NCBI GenBank assembly: GCA_000004985.1
Contig: GG738894.1
Source of the DNA: Naegleria gruberi
Taxonomy: Eukaryota
DNA length: 64,000 bases
Reading direction: 5' to 3' (one strand)
Each line of letters opens with the position of its first letter. The stretch's first letter is position 1. Below, piece after piece: positions 1 through 63,466 of the stretch. Both the position numbers and the translations under genes were made by a program. The notes beneath the pieces were generated by a model. It was given only the letters and a program-made list of their open reading frames with translations, did no database searches and was not told the origin of the DNA.

Positions 1-290
1 CAAACCCAAACCCAAACCCAAACCCAAACCCAAACCCAAACCCAAACCCAAACCCAAACCCAAACCCAAACCCAAACCCAAACCCAAACCCAAACCCAAA
101 CCCAAACCCAAACCCAAACCCAAACCCAAACCCAAACCCAAACCCAAACCCAAACCCAAACCCAAACCCAAACCCAAACCCAAACCCAAACCCAAACCCA
201 AACCCAAACCCAAACCCAAACCCAAACCCAAACCCAAACCCAAACCCAAACCCAAACCCAAACCCAAACCCAAACCCAAACCCAAACCCA
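1..290. repeat. Telomeric repeat array, about 48 tandem copies of CCCAAA (G-strand TTTGGG), at the start of the window. It marks the physical chromosome end.
   Basis: Perfect 6-nt periodicity caaacc from position 1 to 290, ending abruptly at cgactaaggt. C-rich strand reads 5'->3' on the top strand, as expected for a left telomere. Confidence 0.9.
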
Positions 291-1094
291 CGACTAAGGT
301 CAGACCCAACATTTTGACTTTTATTCATCTTAATTAATTATCTCAATAAATACTCATTATAAATCAATATATTATATATCAATATACTCCAAATTGAATA
401 TATAATCATATTATAACATAATGTTACATCATTATAATGACTTATATAAGTTAATTTCATATAATAGATTAGACAATTAGAATATCAATGAAAACATTTC
501 AAAATCATTTCAAATCAATATATCATCTTATAAATCATGTCAATAACAAAATATATCAGTTTCAAATACTTTGGTATCATTTCAAGAAATTTACTATTCA
601 ACTTGTCAACTGACCTATACTAACATTGAAGATAGAAATCTATACCACTTCAATTCACTTCCAATACATATATACATGATAATTAAATACATTAATATCA
701 TTTTGACATTCATCCATATCATACATGGTACATGGCTGATCCACTTGATACCTATAGGGATGTGACAATGACATCCACTATACAGATCATCATGAAACTG
801 GTACAGGACCTTACTAATGGTGAATAAACACTACTGTATCAGTTTCATGACAATTTGAAATCATTCAACATGTCAGGAGTGTAATCATGGGAATTATAAA
901 TGTCAAGATAATCAAATCATATTAATTTTAAAATCTTTCAATTACAATATCATATATAGATCAATTAATCATGGTATATCAATAATTGGTATTGAATTTC
1001 ATATCAATTCATTCAAACCTTAATGACCTATCCTTAGATGACCAACTCAATTTTAAACTATCATGAATCATATAACTATTGATATCATTGTGTT
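291..1094. other. Subtelomeric, extremely AT-rich non-coding region
   Basis: No convincing ORF. Only one low-complexity 64-aa ORF. Very low GC; lies between the telomere array and the assembly gap. Confidence 0.5.
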
Positions 1095-3284
1095 NNNNNN
1101 NNNNNNNNNNNNNNNNNNNNNNNNNNNNNNNNNNNNNNNNNNNNNNNNNNNNNNNNNNNNNNNNNNNNNNNNNNNNNNNNNNNNNNNNNNNNNNNNNNNN
1201 NNNNNNNNNNNNNNNNNNNNNNNNNNNNNNNNNNNNNNNNNNNNNNNNNNNNNNNNNNNNNNNNNNNNNNNNNNNNNNNNNNNNNNNNNNNNNNNNNNNN
1301 NNNNNNNNNNNNNNNNNNNNNNNNNNNNNNNNNNNNNNNNNNNNNNNNNNNNNNNNNNNNNNNNNNNNNNNNNNNNNNNNNNNNNNNNNNNNNNNNNNNN
1401 NNNNNNNNNNNNNNNNNNNNNNNNNNNNNNNNNNNNNNNNNNNNNNNNNNNNNNNNNNNNNNNNNNNNNNNNNNNNNNNNNNNNNNNNNNNNNNNNNNNN
1501 NNNNNNNNNNNNNNNNNNNNNNNNNNNNNNNNNNNNNNNNNNNNNNNNNNNNNNNNNNNNNNNNNNNNNNNNNNNNNNNNNNNNNNNNNNNNNNNNNNNN
1601 NNNNNNNNNNNNNNNNNNNNNNNNNNNNNNNNNNNNNNNNNNNNNNNNNNNNNNNNNNNNNNNNNNNNNNNNNNNNNNNNNNNNNNNNNNNNNNNNNNNN
1701 NNNNNNNNNNNNNNNNNNNNNNNNNNNNNNNNNNNNNNNNNNNNNNNNNNNNNNNNNNNNNNNNNNNNNNNNNNNNNNNNNNNNNNNNNNNNNNNNNNNN
1801 NNNNNNNNNNNNNNNNNNNNNNNNNNNNNNNNNNNNNNNNNNNNNNNNNNNNNNNNNNNNNNNNNNNNNNNNNNNNNNNNNNNNNNNNNNNNNNNNNNNN
1901 NNNNNNNNNNNNNNNNNNNNNNNNNNNNNNNNNNNNNNNNNNNNNNNNNNNNNNNNNNNNNNNNNNNNNNNNNNNNNNNNNNNNNNNNNNNNNNNNNNNN
2001 NNNNNNNNNNNNNNNNNNNNNNNNNNNNNNNNNNNNNNNNNNNNNNNNNNNNNNNNNNNNNNNNNNNNNNNNNNNNNNNNNNNNNNNNNNNNNNNNNNNN
2101 NNNNNNNNNNNNNNNNNNNNNNNNNNNNNNNNNNNNNNNNNNNNNNNNNNNNNNNNNNNNNNNNNNNNNNNNNNNNNNNNNNNNNNNNNNNNNNNNNNNN
2201 NNNNNNNNNNNNNNNNNNNNNNNNNNNNNNNNNNNNNNNNNNNNNNNNNNNNNNNNNNNNNNNNNNNNNNNNNNNNNNNNNNNNNNNNNNNNNNNNNNNN
2301 NNNNNNNNNNNNNNNNNNNNNNNNNNNNNNNNNNNNNNNNNNNNNNNNNNNNNNNNNNNNNNNNNNNNNNNNNNNNNNNNNNNNNNNNNNNNNNNNNNNN
2401 NNNNNNNNNNNNNNNNNNNNNNNNNNNNNNNNNNNNNNNNNNNNNNNNNNNNNNNNNNNNNNNNNNNNNNNNNNNNNNNNNNNNNNNNNNNNNNNNNNNN
2501 NNNNNNNNNNNNNNNNNNNNNNNNNNNNNNNNNNNNNNNNNNNNNNNNNNNNNNNNNNNNNNNNNNNNNNNNNNNNNNNNNNNNNNNNNNNNNNNNNNNN
2601 NNNNNNNNNNNNNNNNNNNNNNNNNNNNNNNNNNNNNNNNNNNNNNNNNNNNNNNNNNNNNNNNNNNNNNNNNNNNNNNNNNNNNNNNNNNNNNNNNNNN
2701 NNNNNNNNNNNNNNNNNNNNNNNNNNNNNNNNNNNNNNNNNNNNNNNNNNNNNNNNNNNNNNNNNNNNNNNNNNNNNNNNNNNNNNNNNNNNNNNNNNNN
2801 NNNNNNNNNNNNNNNNNNNNNNNNNNNNNNNNNNNNNNNNNNNNNNNNNNNNNNNNNNNNNNNNNNNNNNNNNNNNNNNNNNNNNNNNNNNNNNNNNNNN
2901 NNNNNNNNNNNNNNNNNNNNNNNNNNNNNNNNNNNNNNNNNNNNNNNNNNNNNNNNNNNNNNNNNNNNNNNNNNNNNNNNNNNNNNNNNNNNNNNNNNNN
3001 NNNNNNNNNNNNNNNNNNNNNNNNNNNNNNNNNNNNNNNNNNNNNNNNNNNNNNNNNNNNNNNNNNNNNNNNNNNNNNNNNNNNNNNNNNNNNNNNNNNN
3101 NNNNNNNNNNNNNNNNNNNNNNNNNNNNNNNNNNNNNNNNNNNNNNNNNNNNNNNNNNNNNNNNNNNNNNNNNNNNNNNNNNNNNNNNNNNNNNNNNNNN
3201 NNNNNNNNNNNNNNNNNNNNNNNNNNNNNNNNNNNNNNNNNNNNNNNNNNNNNNNNNNNNNNNNNNNNNNNNNNNNNNNNNNNN
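1095..3284. other. Assembly gap, a run of 2,190 N
   Basis: Continuous n characters. All ORFs in the track spanning this interval are artefacts of N translated as X. Confidence 0.99.
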
Positions 3285-4602
3285 CATTAGCAAAATAAAC
3301 TTCACCATTTGCTTCAGTGATACAACTAATAATAGTACCTAAACTTGAATTATAAGCAATAGTTCCATCAGTTAAAATTGAAAATTCTGGAAGAGTTACT
3401 CCAGTTCCAGCTTTAAATGTTGCATTTCCATTTGTTTTGTTCAATTCGAATAGCATCATATCATGAGTTGCAAAATAGTTGGTGGAAAGGAATTGAGGAG
3501 AAATGTTGAGAGAAGTTGCTAGCGCAGTTTCTTGACCAAGTGGAATACCAGCAAAATTTTTCGTGTTACAATTTCCAGCTAGGATTTTCCTTTCACCTTC
3601 TTTCGTATAATTATAAACAACCTTTGTCGATTCAGAAACAATCAAATTATCATACATATCCAATAGAACACTATATGGCTTTACCAAACCAGAAACTAGA
3701 ACGCTCTTTGTAAAGGTAGTATCAAGACTAATGTTCAAACTAATCACATTTCCACCATTTTGCTCCACAACATAAACCAAATCTCCTTTTCTAAACATAT
3801 TTCCAGGAAAATTTAAACCTATTTCCTCATGTTTCAATAAAATTGAATTTTCATTTGAAATGTCATATTTAGAAACCTTTCCCGTAGATCCTTGTGAAAT
3901 TATTAAATATTTTCCAGTGGATAGAATTGAATTTGGTCCTCCAAGAATTATTATTGTTGTTGTAATTCTAGTTTGTAAATTAAATTGTCGTATGGCATTG
4001 TTGCTATTGTCAGTAATAAACATTAAATTGTCATCATCTGACAAGGCAACTGACAGAGTTGACGCAAAGAGAACAGAATATGGATCGGTGCTATCATTAT
4101 ATCCAGATGAACCACATTTACCAACAATAGTTGAAATGTTGCCAGTTGTCAAATCAACTCCACGAACACAATTACTAGAACTGACAAAATATAACCAAGT
4201 TTCATTCTTATTAAGTACCATTCCTGTTGGTGCATTCAATTTAGCAGATGTAGCAACAATATTGTTTCCATCATCTCCAGATGCATAACTTCCAGCAAAG
4301 ACAGAGATTACTCCAGTGTTTCCATCAACTTTTCGAATAACATGGTATGTACTATCAGACATGTAGACGGTTCCATCTTTTGCTTGTACAGTATGGGCAA
4401 TTCTAGCAAGACATGACATGCTTGCTGGAAATCCATCACCAAACTGTCTGGTGTATGCTAATGTAATTGGTGAGGTTACACCAGCAAATATGGACACATC
4501 ATATTTAACATCAGATGATGACGCACAAATTAGAGTTGTGTGGAAACTCAGCCAAGTGGTGGCCACAAGGAGAAAACTAATTAGAAGAGCGGATAATGAC
4601 AT
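3285..4602 (-). CDS. Secreted NHL-repeat (six-bladed beta-propeller) protein. The N-terminal about 440 aa are present and the C-terminus is lost in the gap.
   Basis: ATG at 4602..4600 (MSLSALLISFLLVATTWLS, signal-peptide-like) preceded by an A-run. Repeated G/N/D-rich blocks with 'Y.D..NH.IRK.D'-like units typical of NHL repeats. ORF runs uninterrupted into the N gap. Confidence 0.55.
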
Positions 4603-4859
4603 TTTTTTTTGAAGACTAAGAAAGTAATTGTGTGGCAAAGAATTTAGGAGTGTTTCCACCAATTCCTGGTGGTTCTAACATGAGAACAAACCATAGTAAC
4701 TGTTTCCATGGATTGATGGAAAAGAACATGTGTGGTACTTGGTTTCTTTTAGAAGTGTCAAAACTAATGTGATTTGGAAAGTATTAATCAAGCCAATAAC
4801 AATCTTCCAAATTTTATGAAGAGTTTGACAAATTGATTGAATATTAATTTTTGATTAGT

Positions 4860-7800
4860 TTACTTTATTCTGACTTTCTCTTTGATTTGATTGAGTGTAT
4901 CAACCCATTCATCACGTTCTTCCTTAGTTTGAGCAGCTAAAAAGTAATCACGAGTTGGAATTTCAATTCTAAATACGAAACGTTTCTTACTTGATCTTTC
5001 AGGAATCATTTCAATATTCAAAACCTGTCTCATATCAATACATCCTAATTGCTTATCGAATTTATCTGCTTCATCATTGAAATAATAAACATAAAATCCT
5101 TCAATTCTAAAGTAACGCTTCTTATACATGTTTAGTTTAGGACCTTTCTTTTCCAAATAACCATGCTTGTCAGCATTCATTGAAGATGGTTTGACACCAA
5201 ACTTCTTTTCCAAAATGTTAGGTCTTGGTGAACGAACATAAACTTCTTCCTCTTGTGTAATTACTGATTTTCTATCAACAAATGGTTGAGAAACATCAAA
5301 GGTTGAAAGTTGATTGGAAAGTGTTGTCAAATGTTTCTTATTGACAGTTACTGACATACGTTGTGAAAGTTTTTCCTTTTCATGTTGAGAGTTAGATCTA
5401 GATGTTTGAGCGTCCATCTTTTTAGGTTGAATAACATCACCTCCTTTTTTAGGTTGTTGGAATGATTCAATCTTTACGCCTGTATACTTTTTGAGGAATT
5501 TAATTTCACGTTCCAATGTTTCTACCTTTTCACGTTCTTGTAATAGGAGAATTGTATTCGATTCTTGAGATTGTTGGAGTGTAGAGAGAGTCTTTTTACG
5601 ATAGGCCTTAATCTTCTTATATTTTTGATAGACTTCATCCTTTTCTTGTTCCAATTTCTTCATTTGTTCCTTCAAGTTTTCTTCAGCATCTTTGAGAGTG
5701 GTAATTTCCTTTCTGAGTTGTTCAACTTGTTCCATATCGGTGGATTGCTTCTTGCTAATTTCTTCCTTTAACTTTTTGAGTTCAGTTTCAAGATTTTGAA
5801 TTTGCTCCTTGTGCATCTTTTCAGTTTCTTGAGCTTTCATCTTGGAAATTTCCATTTCTGTATTCTTTTTACGAGCAGTATTGAGTTTGACAGTTAAATC
5901 ATCAATAGTTTCTTTGAGTTTTTGACTATTGCCCTTATCTTCGAATGCAGATCTTAGTGAAGCGGTTGTGGAAGAGTTGGCACTTATGGATAATCTGGAA
6001 GATTTTTCTACAGCAGTTTGATATTGATTGAACAATTGTTGATATTCGTAAATCTTATCGTCAAGACTCTTCAAAGCAATTTCAGCTGCTTTTTCTCTTG
6101 CCTTTAAGTTTTCTCTCTTGGCCAAATTGAGTTGTTCCATCAACAGTTTGTTCTTGCTCTTCATCTTTTCGATTAATTGATGAGATGGATCATCAGAAGA
6201 AAGTTGTGAAATTTCCTTAGCATTATGATTATCTTCATCTTCAACAAGTTTCTTTTCAATTTGAGTTAGTTTTTCACTAATCTCTTCGTACATCTTTTTG
6301 TAATCTTCGCATTGAATCTTCAACACATTGACAGTTTCAGCATCAATTTCCATCTTTTTCACAGATAAACTAGATTCCAATCCAGAGCTATTAGATTGTG
6401 TGACTGAGAAACGTGACGAAAGAACTGAATTGGTTGGCTTGGTGGTAGATGCGGAAGTTTCTAACTTTTTCACAGCTTCTTTCAATTCATTGATTTCCTT
6501 AGTCTTTTGAGCAAGCTTTTCATTCAATTCTTCCTTTGTAGAATCAGATTGAATGAGTTTTTCCTTCAATTCTTGAATTTCTGCATGAGTTTTTTGTAAA
6601 CTCTCATCGTGGCGAATCTTTTCCTGTTCTAAACTTTCCTTCAATTCGGTAACTTGTCTAAACTTCTTTTCCAAATCTTCAAGTGATGTTTCAGCAGTGC
6701 TTGCTTGTTTCTTATATTGAACTACAGCTTCGTGTTCCTTCTTTAAATTGGCTTCCAATTCGGTGACTTTAGTTTTCAACGAACTCACTTGTTCATTCAA
6801 TTCATGTTTCTCAGTGAGGACCTTCTTGAAAAGAGTATCAGAAATTTCTGCCTTTTCTTCATTAACAGGGGATGGTGGAGAAGAAGGTGTCATTGGTGAT
6901 TCATCAACTGGTGTTGATGGCTCCTTCTTGACTTCGAAAGAAGAGACAGGTGTTGATGGCAGTTGTTGCCTTTGTGGAACAGGTGGTGCTTGTTCAGGTT
7001 TTACATTACTACTACTAATTGCTGTTGATGAAGAAGTTGATGGTTGACTTATTGGGGTAATTTCGGCAACACCCTCCAAACTGACATAATTGATAGAAAC
7101 CTCACTTGACATTTCACACAGTAAATTGCCCAAATTCAAATTTGGAACTGTTTGCCTTTCAACAAGGGCAGGTAATGATGATTGTGACAAGGTAATAAAT
7201 CCGAAACTTGCTGTATTGATGAAAATTCGCGAGAATAACAGACAACGAAGAGTTGTTTCGAAATAATCAAACTCATCTGATTCACTGTGAATTGCTTCTG
7301 TTACTTGTTGGAAAGTTCTGAATCCTGTTGGACGTGTTTGTTTGTGTGGATCAGTTGATGATTCAGCATCAATATCAATAATGGTCAATCGACCTTCTTT
7401 GGTGAGTTTAGTATTGGTATCACTTTGAAGAAGTTTAATTTCAAAGAAAAGTGAACTATGTTCTATAATATTTCAATGAATCATTCAAGTTGAAAAGAAT
7501 AATGAATAGTTTAAATTGTTTTCTAATATAAATTTCCAATAAAAAAACAAACCTTTTGATCTCTTTTCTAAAGATTTTGAAATAAATTGGAATAGTTCAA
7601 CTTCACTCGTCACAAATTCTTCATGTAATCCAGCAATTTCAACACTATTCGTTTCATCATTGACCAATACTTCCAAATGTGCAGAATTGACATCATTTGC
7701 CAAATCATGATCAGCCAGTAAATCAGTCATGAGTGCTTCACCATTATCCAAACCACAAATTTCAAAACTTGTCATGGAAACTGAAAATTCAATTTCAGGT

Positions 7801-57132: not shown

Positions 57133-59316
57133 TTAGTGAGTTTCAGTTGTTGTGGTGGTAGCTTCTGTTTGTTGAGATTGTTCGTTTGTTGTTTGATTAG
57201 TGGCAGCACCAATACGTTGTTGAATCATATTAACGACAAAGGCTGGATCAATAACGTGTTCGAAAATTAAACCAGATCTTTCCATACCCTTAGAATTGAC
57301 AGTCTTCAAGTAAATTCTATTGTCTTCAGCCCAAACACTCTTAATCTTTTCATAATTGACACTGACCAAGTTCATTCTCAAACGAAGTGGCAATTCAATA
57401 ACTCTAACAATACGTTCAGAGGTGATCAAATAGTGAACACTTCTTCTCTTGAAGAGAGCAAACCAAGTAATGAGGGCAATAACACCCAAAGTAAAGTACA
57501 AATGCAAGAATCCACTGAAAATCTTGAGTTTGAAAATAGAGATACCAGCATGGAGAGTACCATAGGCAATCAAACCAATAACGAATAAAATAAGGGCAAC
57601 CTTGGCAATGACACACAAGATACGTCCAAACTTTCTCTTACCATTACAAGCACCATGTTTCTTACCGTGACATGAAATATTCTTCTTGGCTGGCTTTTCA
57701 TACAATAAGAGAGTTTCAGTTGCCTTGGTAGCAGTTGATCTCATAAGTTTCCAGAACTTGGACAATCTCTTTTGCAATACTCTTTCTTGACGTGGAGTAT
57801 TTTCCATCTGTAAAGTGGAAGAAGAGAGAAGAGTTCTAGACTTTGGTTCTTTTGGATCTTGAATAATAACAGCTGAAGAGGAAACTTCATCGAGTTTGTA
57901 AACTTCTCCAGTACCTTCAAATGGATTGGCAAAGTATTGTCTAATGAATCTATCACAAGAACGTCTACTCTTACCATCCAAAACCTTAAAACCAATAATT
58001 ACAAAGATTACAGTAATAACTACTGAAAGAATCAAGAAACCTGGAATAGCACAACGAAGACTACGACGGAATCTACGAGCAACAGTTTCACGAGTGGCAA
58101 TAACATCTTCATGGTTCTCATCTCCACGACGATCCTTTTGTGGTTGTCTATTGTCAGCAGGAGCAATTGATGAGGATGGTTGTTGTCCTTGTTTACCAGA
58201 GTCAGGTTTAGCTTGATCGTTTGGTTGACCAGATTGTGGTGGTGCTTGCTGATTATCATTAGATGGTGGTGCTTGTGGCTTTGAGCTTTCTAGGATTCTC
58301 TTTTCACCACGACCAGATTGTGGTGGTTGATGTTTGGAGTATCCTCCATGACCCTTTCCTGGCTTTTCCATATCAAAGAACATGTCCATAACTTCCATCA
58401 TTCTCATTCTGTCTTCATCAATATAGCAAGAAATTTCACCAAGTTTAATAACACGATCTCTGCAATCTAAAGTTTGTTGTTGTAATGGATATGAACAAAC
58501 TCTTGACATGATGAAGGATTTCTTGGCAATCTTTGGTGGTTTAGTGTAAGAGTCTGGTCTTGATCTCATTACATGTCTAATTTCTCTAGTGTGTCTGGCA
58601 TGATTAGCAATTGAATGATGACCAGGATGGAATTCATCATGACCTGGACCACCAGGACCCAAGTTTCTGTGTGCAACTGAAACATTCAATTCGAGATAGT
58701 ACACTCCACGATCATAGTCAAAGTGTACAACAGAGTTATCTTGGTCAGTATTGACCTGGCAAACGCTCTTTCTATAATTTAAATGATTGTCAGCACTCTT
58801 ACCAATAGTTAAGAAGAATGCAATGGAGAGGAAAATAAATAAGAGTGAGAATACCCCAACAGCTCTTGGAATTCTTGTCCAAGTCTTACCCTTTAACGAT
58901 TTCAAAAATCTTTTTTGTTGGGCATGTTTACAATTTCTCCACTTCCAGAGCCATGATCTACGAGGAGCTTGTTCTCTTTGTGGCAATGGAATGGTAGTAT
59001 CTTGATTATTGGTAGTAGTAGTGGATGATGGAATTAAATTTTGGTTCATTGGAACTTCTTGTAATTCAACATCATTATGTACAATTGAAGATGGAATTGA
59101 TGATGAAGGAGGAACGTAATTGAATGGAATTGGATTCATACCACTCCATGGATACATGGTTGGGAGGTTATTTGTAGTAGTTTGATTAGCTGTTGATGGA
59201 GTTGTGGAATTTGGTTGTTGTTGATGAACCGTATAATAGGGAACATATTGAAGATCTTCGGAAGCCCCATTCAATGATGGATATTGGGAAGTTGGTTGTT
59301 GTTGTTGATTATTCAT
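57133..59316 (-). CDS. Membrane protein with a P/Q-rich N-terminus and a C-terminal two-helix hairpin followed by a bacterial-type PH (bPH_2/YdbS-YdbT-like) domain
   Basis: First ATG at 59316 (MNNQQQQ; the track start is TTG). Two TM helices near residues 160 and 440. C-terminal LILFVIGLIAYGTLHAG...VIALITWFALF, then RRSVHYLITSERIVRVIELPLRLRMNLVSVNYEKIKSVWAEDNRIYL, which follows the bPH_2 pattern. Confidence 0.45.
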   Translation of the reverse strand: MNNQQQQPTSQYPSLNGASEDLQYVPYYTVHQQQPNSTTPSTANQTTTNNLPTMYPWSGMNPIPFNYVPPSSSIPSSIVHNDVELQEVPMNQNLIPSSTTTTNNQDTTIPLPQREQAPRRSWLWKWRNCKHAQQKRFLKSLKGKTWTRIPRAVGVFSLLFIFLSIAFFLTIGKSADNHLNYRKSVCQVNTDQDNSVVHFDYDRGVYYLELNVSVAHRNLGPGGPGHDEFHPGHHSIANHARHTREIRHVMRSRPDSYTKPPKIAKKSFIMSRVCSYPLQQQTLDCRDRVIKLGEISCYIDEDRMRMMEVMDMFFDMEKPGKGHGGYSKHQPPQSGRGEKRILESSKPQAPPSNDNQQAPPQSGQPNDQAKPDSGKQGQQPSSSIAPADNRQPQKDRRGDENHEDVIATRETVARRFRRSLRCAIPGFLILSVVITVIFVIIGFKVLDGKSRRSCDRFIRQYFANPFEGTGEVYKLDEVSSSAVIIQDPKEPKSRTLLSSSTLQMENTPRQERVLQKRLSKFWKLMRSTATKATETLLLYEKPAKKNISCHGKKHGACNGKRKFGRILCVIAKVALILFVIGLIAYGTLHAGISIFKLKIFSGFLHLYFTLGVIALITWFALFKRRSVHYLITSERIVRVIELPLRLRMNLVSVNYEKIKSVWAEDNRIYLKTVNSKGMERSGLIFEHVIDPAFVVNMIQQRIGAATNQTTNEQSQQTEATTTTTETH

Positions 59317-59971: not shown

Positions 59972-62900
59972 TTAATGCTTGTCACTGGATTTTACCGAAA
60001 GTACAGAAGGACGGGTTGAAGATTTGACAGAGAGTGGAGAGTTTCTGGTATTATTTACATTGTTTGAACTGTTTGTGACTGAGAGCTGTTGTTGGGATTG
60101 TTTGATAGGAGTTGTGTTGACCTGTCTTCCAGTTGTTGTTGATGAGCTTGAACCAGTTGCTGTTGTATTGGATGTGCTTGGAGTACTGGAATACTTTTGA
60201 GAGGTAGTCACAACTTTTCCACTATTAACATTTGTATTGACCTTATTCGTTGCTGTTGGTTGATTAGCAGTTGTAGAACTTGTTGTTGTGGACGTAAGCT
60301 TTGGAACTGTATTGGTTGCAGTTGATTTGTTGGCAGTCTGAGTTGTTGGTTTGACTTCGACTGGTGTGGAGGTAAGTTTTGGAACTGTATTGGTTGCAGT
60401 TGGTTTGTTGGCAGTCTGAGTTGTTGGTTTTACCTCCACTGGTAGTGGTAAAATTTCATTATCTTTCAGAACTGTCTTGGCAGAGGTTGAGGTGAGAATT
60501 TGAGGTTCTTCTCTATTACCACACAATCTATTCTTTCTGCATTTTCCTTTGGCATTGGCACTGATTTCGATACCCCTCTTCTCACTGGTGAAAAGTTTGT
60601 TGAGCATGACGAGAGGGTCCGCATCCGATCCAATATATACATTCGATCCGCTATTGCTAAAAACCTTATTATTTACAATATTTCCGAGTCCTTCCTTTCC
60701 AATCTTGATACCTTCAGCCATGCTATTGTGAATTTGATTATTTTCAATTGTTGGATTTCCACCATCCTTTATAAAAATGTTTGCTTCCAAACTTCCAAAA
60801 ATGTCATTATCAGCAATAGTGCCATGAGCACCTGAATGTATTTGAATTCCAACATGAGGAGAGTCACGAATAGTATTACCAGTAATGGTTGGATCTGCCT
60901 TTTCACAAATTTCCAAAGAAACTCCCTTAAAGGTACACTTTTCGATGGATGCATCACATTTTGATCCCTTCAATTTAACAGTACAATGTGGGAGTTTTCC
61001 AGTTGTTTTGGTATTTGGTTTGTACTCTGAATTGTAAACTATCAAATTTCTAATTTTCGAATATCTGACATTGTCAAAGAGAATGACATCCTCAACATCT
61101 TTTGGTTTGTAAAGAATGGCATGTGATTTTCCTTCCGAAATTCCCTTCAAAAAGACACTTCTGTCAATGAGAATTTGTTCCTTATAAACTCCAGGTCGAA
61201 TATTAATAATTGGTGTTGTGAGTGGTCTGGTTGGTTTGATGATTTTTCTTCCGTCTGATGGCCTCACAATGAAAGGCAAGTTGAATTTTTGCATTAAAAG
61301 TCTCTGCTTATCAACAAGTGAAATGTCAAGATTGGAGAGTGGATTACTCTTGACTGGATTGTTTGTTCCCAACATGACTCCTCCACTCGATCCACAATCT
61401 TCATACTCTCCAATATCTCCCAAATTACCAGTTCTAAAACTACTGGCCTTCTTTAGCGAGCCCGAGTCTGAGAAGGCATTCTTCATGGAACTGGCTGAAA
61501 AGGTTTTTGTCAATGAATGAGATGGTAGTGGCCTCTTTGGTATAATTTTCGTAATATCCATTGGAAGAGCATTGATAGCTGTTTGAATGGATGTATAGTC
61601 TCCCTTTCCATTAATATCTACTGTATATTCGAGTGAGTTTTGGAGAGGAATACTTCTCAATTCGGTCAATATTTGAGAGAAGGTTGGACGTTCGTCTGGA
61701 TCCTGTAAACAACAAGTCGAAACCAATCTAACAAAGCAATCAATAATTGGTGATTCTTGTGCCAATTTTTCAGCATTTTCAATCTTTGGTCTTTGTCCCA
61801 TAATTACCTGTGAAGCTACAGTGAATGGATTTTGAACATCGTGAAATGGAATTAAGTGAGTAATCAACTCGTACATGACCATTCCGAAACTGTAAACGTC
61901 AGCTTTTTCTCCTGAAGATGCTGCAGAACTGAACATTTCCTGTTTTTCAAGTTTCGAATATAATAAGTAAAGTAGTAATATTTGATAATAATTTGTTGCA
62001 TAATTTGAATAATAAATTGATATTAAAAGTCAATGCAAAAATACTTACTGGAGCCATCCATCCAGATGTACCTTTCATACCAGATACTCCTGAATTTCTA
62101 TTTCTCACAGAAGACAATCCAAAATCTGAAATTTTCGAAATCAAATTCTTATCCAACAACACGTTATGACTCTTCAAATCTCTGTGAATGATTGGTTTTG
62201 GTCTCGAGTGCAAATGATGCATTCCTTCGGCAATATCAATGGCAATTTGTAATTTCATTTCATTGCTGAGAATTGGTTGTGATTGGAGGAATTTCTTGTA
62301 CTTGTCTGCTTGTTCATCCTCATCATCCATTGGAGATTCGACAATGGTGAGTCCAGTTCCGAGAAGTTTCTTTGTGGTTGGTGTGATCACTTGTCTATTG
62401 TTTTGTTGATTTGAAGGAGGTTTTAATTTGCCATTCTGTGATGATTCATTGGTTGGTGAGAGTTGAGAAGAGTTTTGTTTCTTGGATTTCATCAGAGGTT
62501 CATAGTCATACTCTGGAAAGGTTGTTTCTAATACTTTATGAAGAGAGAAGGGCAGAAATTCCTATTTTTCAATATTACATTATATATTAATTATATATTA
62601 GAATATTAATATGATGTTGTGTGTTGTTGTTATTAATATTATTCCGAATGATGTTTTCCAATTAATTAAATTAAACATTATAATAACAATTAAATTGTTG
62701 GAAGAAGTTAAACACAAATATAATGGAGAGAAGAGTCATAAGAAGAAGAAGAAATTACACTTAGAAAAGAGAGAAATAATTAAACAACTCACCATAACAA
62801 TATAAACACACTGACTATCATCGGACCAACCAAAAACATTCAAAATATTGGAATGTTGTACTCGTAACATGATGGCAATTTCATTCAAAGTCTCCTTCCA

Positions 62901-63466
62901 CAATTCATCATCATCACTATAGCTAGCAAGTCCAATCTTATTTCTTGGTGTTCGACAATTCTCGGGTATGAACAATTGTTTAATAGCACAAACTTCACCA
63001 TCATAGGTTCCCTTACTATTATCATCATCATCATTCGTTATTATTAATTGTTATTATTAATTCATATAATTCAAATATAATGGTTTAAATTCCAAATCAA
63101 AATATTACAGCAATATTTGGATAGATTACATTGTATATAATGGCAATCAGGATGATTTTAATTTTTCATAATTTGTAATTGTATCCGTTATGAAGATATG
63201 AAATTAATTGGCAAAGGAAAAGATTTGATAATTAAAAACATTAACAAAGGAAATGATAGAACGATCATTGAATCAACTACTGAACAGACAAATTAAACAA
63301 CAACATACTTTACAAAGCCTTTAAATAATATATATTAAAAAAACGAGGGAAAATATATTGAAAACATACCAAAACCTCCTTTACCAATCTTTTCTCCAAA
63401 TTCTAAATCCTCCTTATCAATTCGAAATTCTTTAATTTCGTCTTCCAAATCTCCGATATTATTCAT
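59972..63466 (-). CDS. TKL-like protein kinase with a large kinase-insert, fused to a C-terminal parallel beta-helix (PbH1 repeats) and a repeat-encoded T/P/S-rich tail. At least 4 exons.
   Basis: Exon 1 63466-63370 (MNNIGDLEDEIKEFRIDKEDLEFGEKIGKGGFG). A GTATGT intron. Exon 2 about 63010-62762 (GTYDGEVCAIKQL...CVYIVM). A GTGAGT intron. Exon 3 about 62535-62047 (HRDLKSHNVLLD, DFGLSS, GTSGWMAP). A 110-nt GTAAGT intron. Exon 4 61936-59972 (EMFSS..., then NTIRDSPHVGIQIHSGAHGTIADNDI-type beta-helix turns, then a TQTANKPTATNTVPKLTST tandem repeat). Confidence 0.7.
60290..60440. repeat. Two tandem copies of about 75 bp inside the kinase/beta-helix CDS. They encode duplicated PVEVKPTTQTANK(P/S)TATNTVPKLTST.
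   Basis: 60289-60363 and 60364-60438 are near-identical (ggaactgtattggttgcagttg(a/g)tttgttggcagtctgagttgttggttt...). Confidence 0.6.

What the first reader, a model, noticed from the sequence alone, without database searches (positions are those of the whole stretch)
59972..63466. TKL kinase fused to a parallel beta-helix and a tandem-repeat T/P-rich tail
A dual-lobe kinase with an inserted low-complexity segment of about 100 aa is followed by five or more PbH1-type beta-helix turns. That fold is usually seen in pectate lyases and adhesins. It ends in two exact 75-bp DNA repeats encoding a mucin-like linker. An intracellular kinase joined to a beta-helix module is an atypical combination.
Basis: partly seen in the sequence, partly recalled or inferred. 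Interest (0 to 1): 0.5.

Follow-up and report, generated by a model that had tools for sequence, protein, structure and literature searches.

The report
Annotated Naegleria kinase with beta-helix domain

Summary
The gene is real, on the minus strand at 59972..63466. It has five exons, not four. A 10-nt micro-exon (63318..63309) makes every intron GT-AG and restores the glycine loop GKGGFGFV. The resulting 936-aa protein is letter-for-letter the annotated N. gruberi protein XP_002672935.1 / NAEGRDRAFT_81070.

It has an intact TKL-type kinase whose best solved relatives are CTR1, B-Raf and Roco4. The kinase carries an ~80-aa insert. Next comes a right-handed beta-helix of about 11 coils (Pfam Beta_helix 7.5e-29; AlphaFold core pLDDT >90) with its own ~86-aa disordered loop. 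A 158-aa disordered tail rich in Thr/Ser/Asn follows.

The "two exact 75-bp repeats" are two 78-bp copies, 72/78 identical. There is no signal peptide or membrane segment, so "mucin-like" is unsupported.

The fusion cannot be a gene-model artefact, because the kinase C-lobe and the beta-helix share one exon. It is also conserved in N. fowleri, N. lovaniensis and Willaertia.

The beta-helix belongs to the CASH subfamily of FBXO11. In bacteria this module is repeatedly fused to TIR, kinase, caspase and CHAT domains. The AlgG catalytic motif is absent.

Most likely function: a cytosolic kinase whose beta-helix recruits substrates, partners or a ligand. This is inferred, not shown. Low novelty, modest interest.

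The parts
63370..63466 (-). Exon 1 (97 nt). It runs from the ATG at 63466 through GKGGFG and ends in phase 1 at donor G|GTATGT.
   Evidence: The translation matches the N-termini of the N. lovaniensis and Willaertia orthologs.
63319..63369 (-). Intron 1 (51 nt, GTATGT..TTTAAAG, GC 0.18).
   Evidence: An intron sits at the same place in N. lovaniensis. It is absent in Willaertia and in metagenome locus L008.
63309..63318 (-). Exon 2: a 10-nt micro-exon, GCTTTGTAAA. It supplies the G-F-V-N codons that complete the glycine loop GKGGFGFV.
   Evidence: Found by an AG/GT scan. N. lovaniensis has a 10-nt micro-exon GCTTTGTCAG at the same place. The resulting 936-aa protein equals XP_002672935.1 exactly.
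63016..63308 (-). Intron 2 (293 nt, GTATGT..GATAATAG, phase 2).
   Evidence: Its position and phase are conserved in N. lovaniensis, Willaertia and L008.
62793..63015 (-). Exon 3 (223 nt). It encodes the kinase N-lobe, including CAIK (Lys48) and the alpha-C Glu.
62562..62792 (-). Intron 3 (231 nt, GTGAGT..AAATAG, phase 0).
   Evidence: It is absent in L008, where IVMEF is contiguous.
62049..62561 (-). Exon 4 (513 nt). It encodes the kinase hinge, the ~80-aa low-complexity insert, the catalytic loop HRDLKSHN, DFG and the activation loop.
62277..62516 (-). Kinase insert (residues 126-205). It is low-complexity and only 45% identical to N. lovaniensis, against 80-85% for the flanking lobes.
61940..62048 (-). 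Intron 4 (109 nt, GTAAGT..AAACAG, phase 0).
   Evidence: An 8-nt indel relative to a 99%-identical second isolate (L001) lies here, as expected for non-coding DNA.
59972..61939 (-). Exon 5 (1,968 nt, one open reading frame). It holds APE and the kinase C-lobe, the beta-helix, the tail and the TAA stop.
   Evidence: The single exon proves that kinase and beta-helix are one polypeptide.
60449..61633 (-). Right-handed parallel beta-helix domain (residues 384-778). Its N-terminal cap has the motifs GDYTSIQTAINALP and IRPGVYKE. About 11 coils of 23 residues follow.
   Evidence: Pfam Beta_helix 7.5e-29. AlphaFold core pLDDT above 90. Foldseek hits to AlgG, AlgE4 and phage tailspikes at E 3e-7 to 1e-4.
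61280..61537 (-). Disordered loop inserted inside the beta-helix domain, between the cap and the first coils (residues 416-501).
   Evidence: pLDDT below 50. Variable length in orthologs.
59975..60448 (-). Disordered C-terminal tail (residues 779-936). It is rich in Thr, Ser and Asn, with a conserved SPLSVKSS-type motif near the end.
   Evidence: Composition. pLDDT 25-39 with no secondary structure. 24% identity to N. lovaniensis.
60287..60442 (-). Two tandem 78-bp copies (72/78 identical) encoding PVEVKPTTQTANK[P/S]TATNTVPKLTST.
   Evidence: There are also two copies in the second isolate. The repeat is absent from orthologs.

Best explanation
The locus is the annotated Naegleria gruberi gene NAEGRDRAFT_81070. 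It has five exons, including a 10-nt micro-exon, and encodes a 936-aa soluble, cytosolic Ser/Thr kinase of the TKL group.

Shown: the kinase has every catalytic motif. A CASH-type right-handed beta-helix follows directly in the same exon. This beta-helix lacks the catalytic signature of its nearest enzymatic relative. The protein ends in a disordered, fast-evolving S/T-rich tail.

Inferred: the beta-helix is a non-catalytic recognition module. By analogy with the CASH domain of FBXO11, I take it to bring substrates, partners or a ligand to the kinase, or to gate the kinase. The two low-complexity inserts and the tail would be flexible, probably phosphorylatable linkers. The 2 x 78-bp repeat is a lineage-specific duplication within the tail and not a functional core.
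For: Identity and gene model:
- The 5-exon translation equals XP_002672935.1 / EFC40191.1 / UniProt D2VSG9 exactly.
- The micro-exon is conserved in N. lovaniensis. The downstream phase-2 intron is conserved in Willaertia and L008.
- All four introns are GT..AG with GC 0.18-0.23, against 0.31-0.38 for exons (exon GC from the four-exon build).

Active TKL kinase:
- GKGGFGFV, CAIK, HRDLKSHN, DFG and APE are all present.
- The best solved relatives are CTR1 (4.9e-32), B-Raf, Roco4 and RAF1.

One polypeptide, under selection:
- The kinase C-lobe and the beta-helix share exon 5.
- Orthologs with the same architecture exist in N. fowleri, N. lovaniensis, Willaertia and two more distant sequences.
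- Synteny with N. lovaniensis is kept, and the neighbouring gene is only 35% identical.
- Identity to N. lovaniensis is 80-85% for the kinase lobes and 73% for the beta-helix core, but 24% for the tail.
- Against a 99%-identical isolate, the 7 substitutions in the part of the folded domains that P0001 covers are all synonymous (an eighth lies in exon 4, which P0001 does not cover). The tail has 4 non-synonymous and 1 synonymous.

Cytosolic:
- There is no hydrophobic segment (maximum Kyte-Doolittle 19-residue mean 1.05; at most 1.36 in orthologs). The N-terminus is acidic.

Beta-helix as a binding module:
- The fold is confirmed.
- The AlgG DPHD catalytic motif aligns to QIHS.
- The invariant residues are the repeated Gly/Asn/Pro/Ile of the coil.
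- The closest relatives include FBXO11-architecture proteins (F-box + beta-helix + zf-UBR). Others are fusions to TIR, Pkinase, caspase and CHAT, that is, output domain plus beta-helix.
- FBXO11's CASH domains were modelled by others on the same AlgG structures that are our top hits (PMC8825234).
Against: - No experiment or expression data bears on function, and no paper mentions the gene or its orthologs.
- The binding role rests on analogy and on the absence of one enzyme family's motif. A different catalytic site cannot be excluded.
- The full-length AlphaFold model was poor (mean pLDDT 48.5 with a 7-sequence alignment). It says nothing on kinase/beta-helix contacts.
- TKL assignment is by best hits, not by a formal kinome classifier.
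- The substitution counts versus the second isolate are small.
Confidence: 0.6

Rival explanations
1. Cytosolic sensor kinase. The beta-helix directly senses a microbial, viral or glycan ligand inside this bacterivorous amoeba and switches the kinase on. This would be analogous to bacterial proteins in which the same beta-helix subfamily is fused to immune-type effectors such as TIR, CAP12/Pycsar-type TIR, caspase and CHAT.
For: - The nearest non-heterolobosean relatives of the beta-helix have an N-terminal TIR and a C-terminal beta-helix, in the same order as kinase then beta-helix here, and I saw no membrane segment in the three TIR sequences I read.
- One of them carries a CAP12/Pycsar-type TIR that hits PADLOC TIR effector models at 4.7e-36.
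- Among the 54 top relatives, 9 have TIR, 5 caspase and 2 CHAT.
Against: - The beta-helix itself hits no PADLOC model.
- The TIR-beta-helix proteins are uncharacterised, and their genomic contexts showed no obvious defence island.
- The same module also occurs in FBXO11-type proteins and in membrane-anchored, probably extracytoplasmic proteins. Fusion partners therefore do not fix the function.
- No ligand is known.
Confidence: 0.15
2. The beta-helix is mainly an intramolecular regulator or an oligomerisation scaffold (auto-inhibition, or dimerisation as in Raf-type TKL kinases), not a substrate or ligand recruiter.
For: - TKL kinases such as Raf and CTR1, the best hits, are regulated by dimerisation and flanking domains (established knowledge).
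- The beta-helix follows the kinase with only about 8 linker residues.
Against: - No structural evidence is available, because the full-length model is uninformative.
- The same module works with many unrelated output domains. That fits a portable recognition unit better than a kinase-specific regulator.
Confidence: 0.15
3. The beta-helix is an enzyme (polysaccharide lyase, epimerase or esterase) and the protein is bifunctional.
For: The best solved sequence and fold matches are the alginate C5-epimerases AlgG and AlgE4, followed by other glycan-active beta-helices. There are weak Pectinesterase hits in distant homologs.
Against: - The AlgG DPHD motif is replaced by QIHS, and the His is not invariant among orthologs.
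- Identity to all the enzymes is 8-16%.
- There is no secretory signal, whereas such enzymes act outside the cell.
Confidence: 0.05
4. The C-terminal half is an extracellular adhesin with a mucin-like stalk, which is what the first reader's comparison implies.
For: The tail is 49% S/T/P and contains a tandem repeat. Beta-helices occur in adhesins (established knowledge).
Against: - There is no signal peptide or transmembrane segment in this protein or in six homologs.
- The N-terminus is an acidic kinase leader.
- Only two repeat copies exist, and the tail is not conserved.
Confidence: 0.03
5. The fusion is an artefact: two adjacent genes, or a pseudogene with a frameshift at the exon 1/2 junction.
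For: With only four exons, the junction cannot be closed in frame using the strong donor.
Against: - The micro-exon closes it with canonical sites and is conserved.
- The kinase C-lobe and beta-helix lie in one exon.
- The open reading frame is intact and conserved across at least 5 species, and all substitutions in the folded domains versus a second isolate are synonymous.
Confidence: 0.02

Closest known systems
Naegleria gruberi NAEGRDRAFT_81070 (XP_002672935.1, UniProt D2VSG9), with orthologs N. fowleri FDP41_006127, N. lovaniensis C9374_013088 and Willaertia magna ABK040_005849
   Same: The N. gruberi entry is identical in sequence: all 936 aa match exactly. The orthologs are 58-66% identical with the same kinase, beta-helix and low-complexity tail architecture.
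   Different: Nothing differs for the N. gruberi entry. The orthologs lack the 78-bp tandem repeat and differ in intron content. All are annotated only as hypothetical or protein kinase domain-containing proteins.
TKL-group kinases CTR1 (Arabidopsis), B-Raf/RAF1 (human) and Roco4 (Dictyostelium)
   Same: They are the best solved relatives of the kinase domain (E 5e-32 to 3e-28). They share the HRDLKSxN catalytic loop, DFG and APE.
   Different: This kinase has an ~80-aa insert between the hinge and helix alpha-E, plus an extra loop before alpha-C. Its accessory domain is a beta-helix rather than a Ras-binding, EDR1, LRR or Roc-COR domain.
FBXO11 (F-box + three CASH beta-helix domains + zf-UBR), the substrate receptor of an SCF ubiquitin ligase
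   Same: It has an intracellular, non-enzymatic beta-helix of the same subfamily. Proteins with the FBXO11 architecture are among the 54 best matches to this beta-helix out of 1.8 billion representatives. Both relate best to AlgG among solved structures (PMC8825234).
   Different: The output domain is a kinase rather than an F-box. There is no UBR zinc finger. Identity is about 30%. The substrate-binding role is assumed here, not tested.
Bacterial TIR-beta-helix and Ser/Thr-kinase-beta-helix proteins (uncharacterised metagenomic families, e.g. P0121, P0124, P0135, P0180, and the 694-aa kinase at L005 2136-4220)
   Same: They have the same beta-helix subfamily, with the cap motif (G)D(F/Y)xxIxxAI...I.V.PGxYxE and 23-residue coils. 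They share the domain order, with the output domain N-terminal and the beta-helix C-terminal. Several kinase versions also lack a membrane segment.
   Different: Their kinases are bacterial Hanks-type and only weakly similar to this one (E 1e-7 to 1e-10 in a 54-sequence search), so the fusions are probably independent. Some are membrane-anchored with an external beta-helix.
Alginate C5-epimerases AlgG / AlgE4
   Same: They are the best solved match by sequence (1.3e-10) and by fold (3.4e-7).
   Different: The catalytic DPHD motif is not conserved, identity is 13-15%, and those enzymes are periplasmic or secreted.

Membership tests
Eukaryotic protein kinase, catalytically competent | Gly-rich loop GxGxxGxV, VAIK Lys, alpha-C Glu, HRD catalytic loop with Asn, DFG, APE | tested here: met
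   GKGGFGFV at residue 28 (complete only with the micro-exon), CAIK at 45-48, HRDLKSHN at 236, DFG at 256 and APE at 280. Pfam Pkinase scores 147.7 bits against a cut-off of 31.7.
TKL group of protein kinases | The kinase domain is most similar to TKL members (Raf, CTR1, MLK, LRRK/Roco, IRAK), with a Ser/Thr-type HRDLKxxN loop | tested here: met
   The top 60 PDB sequence hits are CTR1, B-Raf, RAF1 and Roco4, and the catalytic loop is HRDLKSHN. A formal kinome-HMM classification was not available.
Right-handed parallel beta-helix (Pfam Beta_helix PF13229 / CASH-PbH1 repeats) | Significant profile match, and a three-stranded coil fold with a period of about 22-23 residues | tested here: met
   Pfam scores 100.8 bits against a cut-off of 25.9. 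The AlphaFold model has about 11 coils with core pLDDT above 90. Foldseek gives 69 PDB beta-helix matches at E<=1e-3.
Alginate C5-epimerase / polysaccharide-active beta-helix enzymes | Conserved catalytic motif (DPHD in AlgG), and a secretory or periplasmic location | tested here: not met
   DPHD aligns to QIHS. The His varies among orthologs. There is no signal peptide.
Mucin-like domain | Entry into the secretory pathway (signal peptide or membrane anchor) and many Pro/Thr/Ser-rich tandem repeats | tested here: not met
   No hydrophobic segment is present (maximum hydropathy 1.05). There are only 2 copies of a 26-aa unit. The S/T/P content of 49% fits on its own.
Receptor-type kinase with an external beta-helix sensor (as in the bacterial protein at L005 2136-4220) | A transmembrane segment between the kinase and the beta-helix | tested here: not met
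   The kinase ends at about residue 375 and the beta-helix cap starts at 384, with no hydrophobic stretch between them. The bacterial comparator does have one.
FBXO11-type CASH substrate receptor | F-box and zf-UBR flanking the CASH beta-helix; protein substrate binding by the CASH domain | tested here: not met
   Pfam finds no F-box or zf-UBR. Only the beta-helix subfamily is shared. Substrate binding cannot be tested with these tools.
Known anti-phage defence protein families (PADLOC) | A match to a defence-system model | tested here: not met
   The window's beta-helix gave 0 hits. Only the TIR parts of the bacterial relatives hit.

The most novel reading that the evidence does not exclude
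The heterolobosean kinase-beta-helix proteins would be cytosolic pattern sensors. They would use a beta-helix module that prokaryotes pair with TIR, caspase and CHAT death/immunity effectors. The module would detect a microbial, viral or glycan ligand inside a bacterivorous amoeba and answer by phosphorylation. That would be a kinase-output counterpart of a prokaryotic sensor-effector architecture.
Probability: 0.12. Interest if true: 0.65.

Novelty: already known. Interest (0 to 1): 0.28.

Why it matters
As a discovery it matters little. The gene, its five-exon model and its domains are already in public databases for N. gruberi, and orthologs are annotated in N. fowleri, N. lovaniensis and Willaertia. 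Three points have modest value:
- A 10-nt micro-exon, created by an extra intron 10 nt upstream of an older conserved intron, explains an apparent frameshift. It is a useful caution for exon-by-eye models.
- The beta-helix belongs to a portable CASH-type module. Across bacteria and eukaryotes this module is repeatedly joined to signalling or effector domains (TIR, kinase, caspase, CHAT, F-box). That gives a testable idea for an unstudied kinase family, one member of which is in the pathogen N. fowleri.
- The protein is a clean example of folded domains under purifying selection flanked by fast-evolving low-complexity segments.

Tried and rejected
- Four-exon model using the only in-frame canonical pair (AT|GTTTTC with ATAG|T). 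It gives GKGGFGIKGTY, two residues shorter than the orthologs and lacking the conserved Val. Rejected in favour of the micro-exon model.
- A non-canonical AA..AG intron reading GGFGMFSKGTY. Considered by eye and rejected for the same reason.
- Contig L001 from the second isolate does not reach exons 1-3, so it could not test the junction.
No comparison with predicted eukaryotic structures such as FBXO11 or SHCBP1 was therefore possible.
- The full-length AlphaFold run with 7 sequences gave mean pLDDT 48.5, with the kinase below 50. It was unusable for inter-domain geometry.
- The PADLOC scan of the beta-helix gave no hits.
- Literature searches by locus tags and accessions gave 0 papers. Searches on the Naegleria kinome plus beta-helix, and on TIR plus beta-helix plus anti-phage, found nothing that describes this architecture. 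The eLife 2020 conflict-systems paper does not mention beta-helix repeats, so I use it only as loose context.
- The origin of the beta-helix (bacterial transfer versus an FBXO11-like ancestor) could not be settled. Best single-stretch scores are 89 bits for a bacterial-type kinase-beta-helix and 49-72 bits for F-box proteins, which is not decisive.
- The organisms behind P0007 (GCA_006365135.1) and P0008 (a JGI metagenome) could not be named.
- The tRNA scan of the window found none.
Full report
**What is there**

The window is AT-rich eukaryotic DNA, with GC about 0.34. The last exon is a single 654-codon open frame. It already contains the kinase C-lobe, the whole beta-helix and the tail.

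**Gene model**

Introns 3 and 4 of my model are canonical phase-0 introns (GTGAGT..TAG and GTAAGT..CAG).
- The strong donor G|GTATGT at 63369 is phase 1.
- The only AG acceptor, at 63017-63016, needs phase 2.
- The sole in-frame canonical alternative gives GKGGFGIKGTY.
- Orthologs read GKGGFGFV(S/C)KG(T/I)Y.

A scan for AG-N-GT micro-exons of the right phase found GCTTTGTAAA at 63318..63309, flanked by TTTAAAG| and |GTATGTTG. It yields GKGGFGFVNKGTY.

The comparative evidence agrees:
- N. lovaniensis genomic DNA has a 10-nt micro-exon GCTTTGTCAG at the same place.
- In Willaertia magna and in a Naegleria-like metagenome contig, these 10 nt are continuous with exon 1.
- In those two, only the downstream phase-2 intron is present, at the identical position.

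The five-exon coding sequence is 2,811 nt and encodes 936 aa. The introns are 51, 293, 231 and 109 nt, all GT..AG, with GC 0.18-0.23.

An exact-sequence look-up shows that this 936-aa protein is N. gruberi XP_002672935.1 / EFC40191.1 (NAEGRDRAFT_81070, UniProt D2VSG9, 'protein kinase domain-containing protein'). The downstream neighbour is NAEGRDRAFT_81069. The window is therefore N. gruberi, and the gene, micro-exon included, is already annotated.

**Kinase**

- Pfam gives Pkinase 5.6e-43 and PK_Tyr_Ser-Thr 8.5e-40 over residues 22-373.
- All catalytic motifs are present: GKGGFGFV, CAIK, HRDLKSHN, DFG, APE.
- The best solved relatives are all TKL-group kinases: CTR1 4.9e-32, then B-Raf, Roco4 and RAF1.
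- An ~80-aa low-complexity insert (residues 126-205) lies between the hinge and helix alpha-E. It is 45% identical to N. lovaniensis, against 80-85% for the lobes.

**Beta-helix**

- Pfam gives Beta_helix 7.5e-29 and NosD 1.9e-8.
- An AlphaFold model of residues 379-790, built with a 23-sequence alignment, has mean pLDDT 76.
- In that model the coiled core is above 90 and has about 11 three-stranded coils of 23 residues.
- The model has a cap (YTVD strand and IQTAIN helix) and an ~86-residue disordered loop between the cap and the coils.
- Foldseek against the PDB returns only right-handed beta-helices: AlgG 3.4e-7, AlgE4, phage tailspikes and glycan-active enzymes, at 8-16% identity.
- By sequence, the only solved relative is AlgG at 1.3e-10. 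Its catalytic DPHD motif aligns to QIHS here.
- The invariant columns among orthologs are the repeated Gly/Asn/Pro/Ile of the coil, not a unique site.

I therefore regard the domain as non-enzymatic. This is an inference.

**Tail and repeat**

- Residues 779-936 contain 78 S/T/P out of 158.
- They have pLDDT 25-39 and no secondary structure in the full-length model.
- They are only 24% identical to N. lovaniensis.
- The tandem repeat has period 78, 2.1 copies and 91% matches.
- The copies at 60442..60365 and 60364..60287 differ at 6 of 78 positions: 5 synonymous changes and one Pro to Ser. The longest exact shared run is 27 bp.
- Orthologs lack the repeat, and the second isolate also has two copies.
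- No protein of the family has a hydrophobic segment or signal peptide, so a mucin-type extracellular role is not supported.

**One gene, under selection**

- The architecture is shared by N. lovaniensis (66% identity), N. fowleri FDP41_006127, Willaertia magna (59%) and a Naegleria-like metagenome sequence (64%). Two more distant sequences of about 33% identity also share it, one of them next to a eukaryotic RME-8 gene.
- Synteny with N. lovaniensis is kept on the downstream side, and the neighbouring gene is only 35% identical.
- A 99%-identical metagenome contig carries an 8-nt indel inside intron 4.
- The 7 substitutions in the part of the folded domains that its protein covers are all synonymous; an eighth lies in exon 4, upstream of that protein.
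- The tail has 4 non-synonymous and 1 synonymous substitutions.

**Relatives of the beta-helix**

A word-indexed search with the beta-helix region alone found the Naegleria orthologs. The other 16 hits were Beta_helix proteins, 13 of which carry an N-terminal TIR or CAP12/Pycsar-type TIR domain by precomputed Pfam. The rest include TIR-less fragments and a zinc-ribbon, membrane-anchored form. The two genomic contexts I checked look bacterial.

An exhaustive HMMER search of 1.84 billion representatives with the coil core gave 3,042 hits at E<=1e-3. Pfam scans of 54 of the best gave these partner domains:

| Partner domain | Members (of 54) |
|---|---|
| TIR_2 | 9 |
| Pkinase | 7 |
| Caspase | 5 |
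| zf-UBR | 5 |
| F-box | 4 |
| CHAT | 2 |
| HSP70 | 2 |

- The zf-UBR and F-box proteins have the FBXO11 architecture.
- Lipase and WD40 partners also occur.
- Five of the seven kinase fusions have no membrane segment.
- One bacterial example does have kinase, membrane segment and beta-helix in that order.
- Those kinases are only weakly similar to this TKL kinase, so the fusions look independent.
- FBXO11's CASH domains have been modelled by others on the same AlgG structures (PMC8825234).

**Mechanism**

Shown:
- an intact kinase;
- a folded beta-helix in the same polypeptide;
- no secretion signal;
- purifying selection on both folded parts;
- disordered and fast-evolving inserts and tail.

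Inferred: the beta-helix is a portable recognition module that brings a substrate, partner or ligand to the kinase, or gates it. The tail and inserts are flexible, probably phosphorylatable linkers.

Rivals are a ligand-sensing immune-like role, auto-regulation or oligomerisation, and a cryptic enzymatic role. Extracellular-adhesin and gene-fusion-artefact readings are effectively excluded.

**Verdict**

The combination is uncommon among studied eukaryotic kinases. However, it is conserved in Heterolobosea, recurrent in bacteria, and already present in public annotation. No paper mentions it. Novelty: already known (catalogued but uncharacterised). Interest: low to modest.

Noticed in passing
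window 1..290: A perfect (CCCAAA)n array of about 48 copies (TTTGGG on the other strand) sits at the very start of the window. It is telomere-like, so the window begins at a chromosome or scaffold end of N. gruberi. AT-rich subtelomeric DNA follows at 291..1094.
   Followed up: no
window 1095..3284: An assembly gap of about 2.2 kb of N. It causes the apparent GC of 0.11-0.17 in the composition profile. It also produces the spurious long ORFs that the ORF listing reports across it (e.g. 1009..4662 and 1063..3342).
   Followed up: partly
window 57133..59316 (minus strand): The downstream neighbour is NAEGRDRAFT_81069, a 727-aa predicted protein with hydrophobic stretches that look like membrane segments (judged by eye, not computed) and no Pfam domain recorded for its N. 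lovaniensis ortholog. It is syntenic with the N. lovaniensis gene at L002 9839-11824 but only 35% identical, far more diverged than the kinase.
   Followed up: partly
L002 about 6085-6375; L003 about 6110-6455; L008 about 3506-3598 and about 3815: Intron presence varies among close relatives. The 51-nt intron that creates the micro-exon is shared by N. gruberi and N. lovaniensis but absent from Willaertia and the L008 species. L008 also lacks the intron at IVM|EF.
   Followed up: partly
P0006 (N. lovaniensis C9374_008558, 535 aa, on a different contig): A beta-helix-plus-tail-only copy nearly identical to the C-terminus of C9374_013088, with a short divergent stretch. It could be a partial duplicate, an assembly duplicate or a pseudogene.
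   Followed up: no
L005 2136-4220 and 6001-7257 (bacterial metagenome contig): Two genes carrying the same beta-helix subfamily lie 1.8 kb apart. One is a Ser/Thr kinase, membrane segment and beta-helix protein (694 aa). The other is a zinc-ribbon, membrane segment and beta-helix protein (418 aa).
   Followed up: partly
P0121-P0136 (e.g. L004 3712-5826): An uncharacterised bacterial family with an N-terminal TIR (or CAP12/Pycsar-type TIR) fused to a long, very regular CASH-type beta-helix; I saw no membrane segment in the three members I read. Only the TIR part matches PADLOC models.
   Followed up: partly
window about 59990..60050 (residues about 911-931): A short motif, R(N/T)SPLSV(K/Q)SS, near the C-terminus is conserved in N. 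gruberi, N. lovaniensis, the N. fowleri-cluster representative P0005 and L008, within an otherwise unconserved tail. It could be a docking or phosphorylation site.
   Followed up: no
window 61280..61400 (residues about 462-501) and orthologs: Inside the 'disordered' beta-helix insert, the segments GVMLGTNNP and RLLMQKFNLPF..RPSDGRKIIKPTRPL are strongly conserved from Naegleria to Willaertia. The second forms a helix in the model, so part of the insert is probably functional.
   Followed up: no
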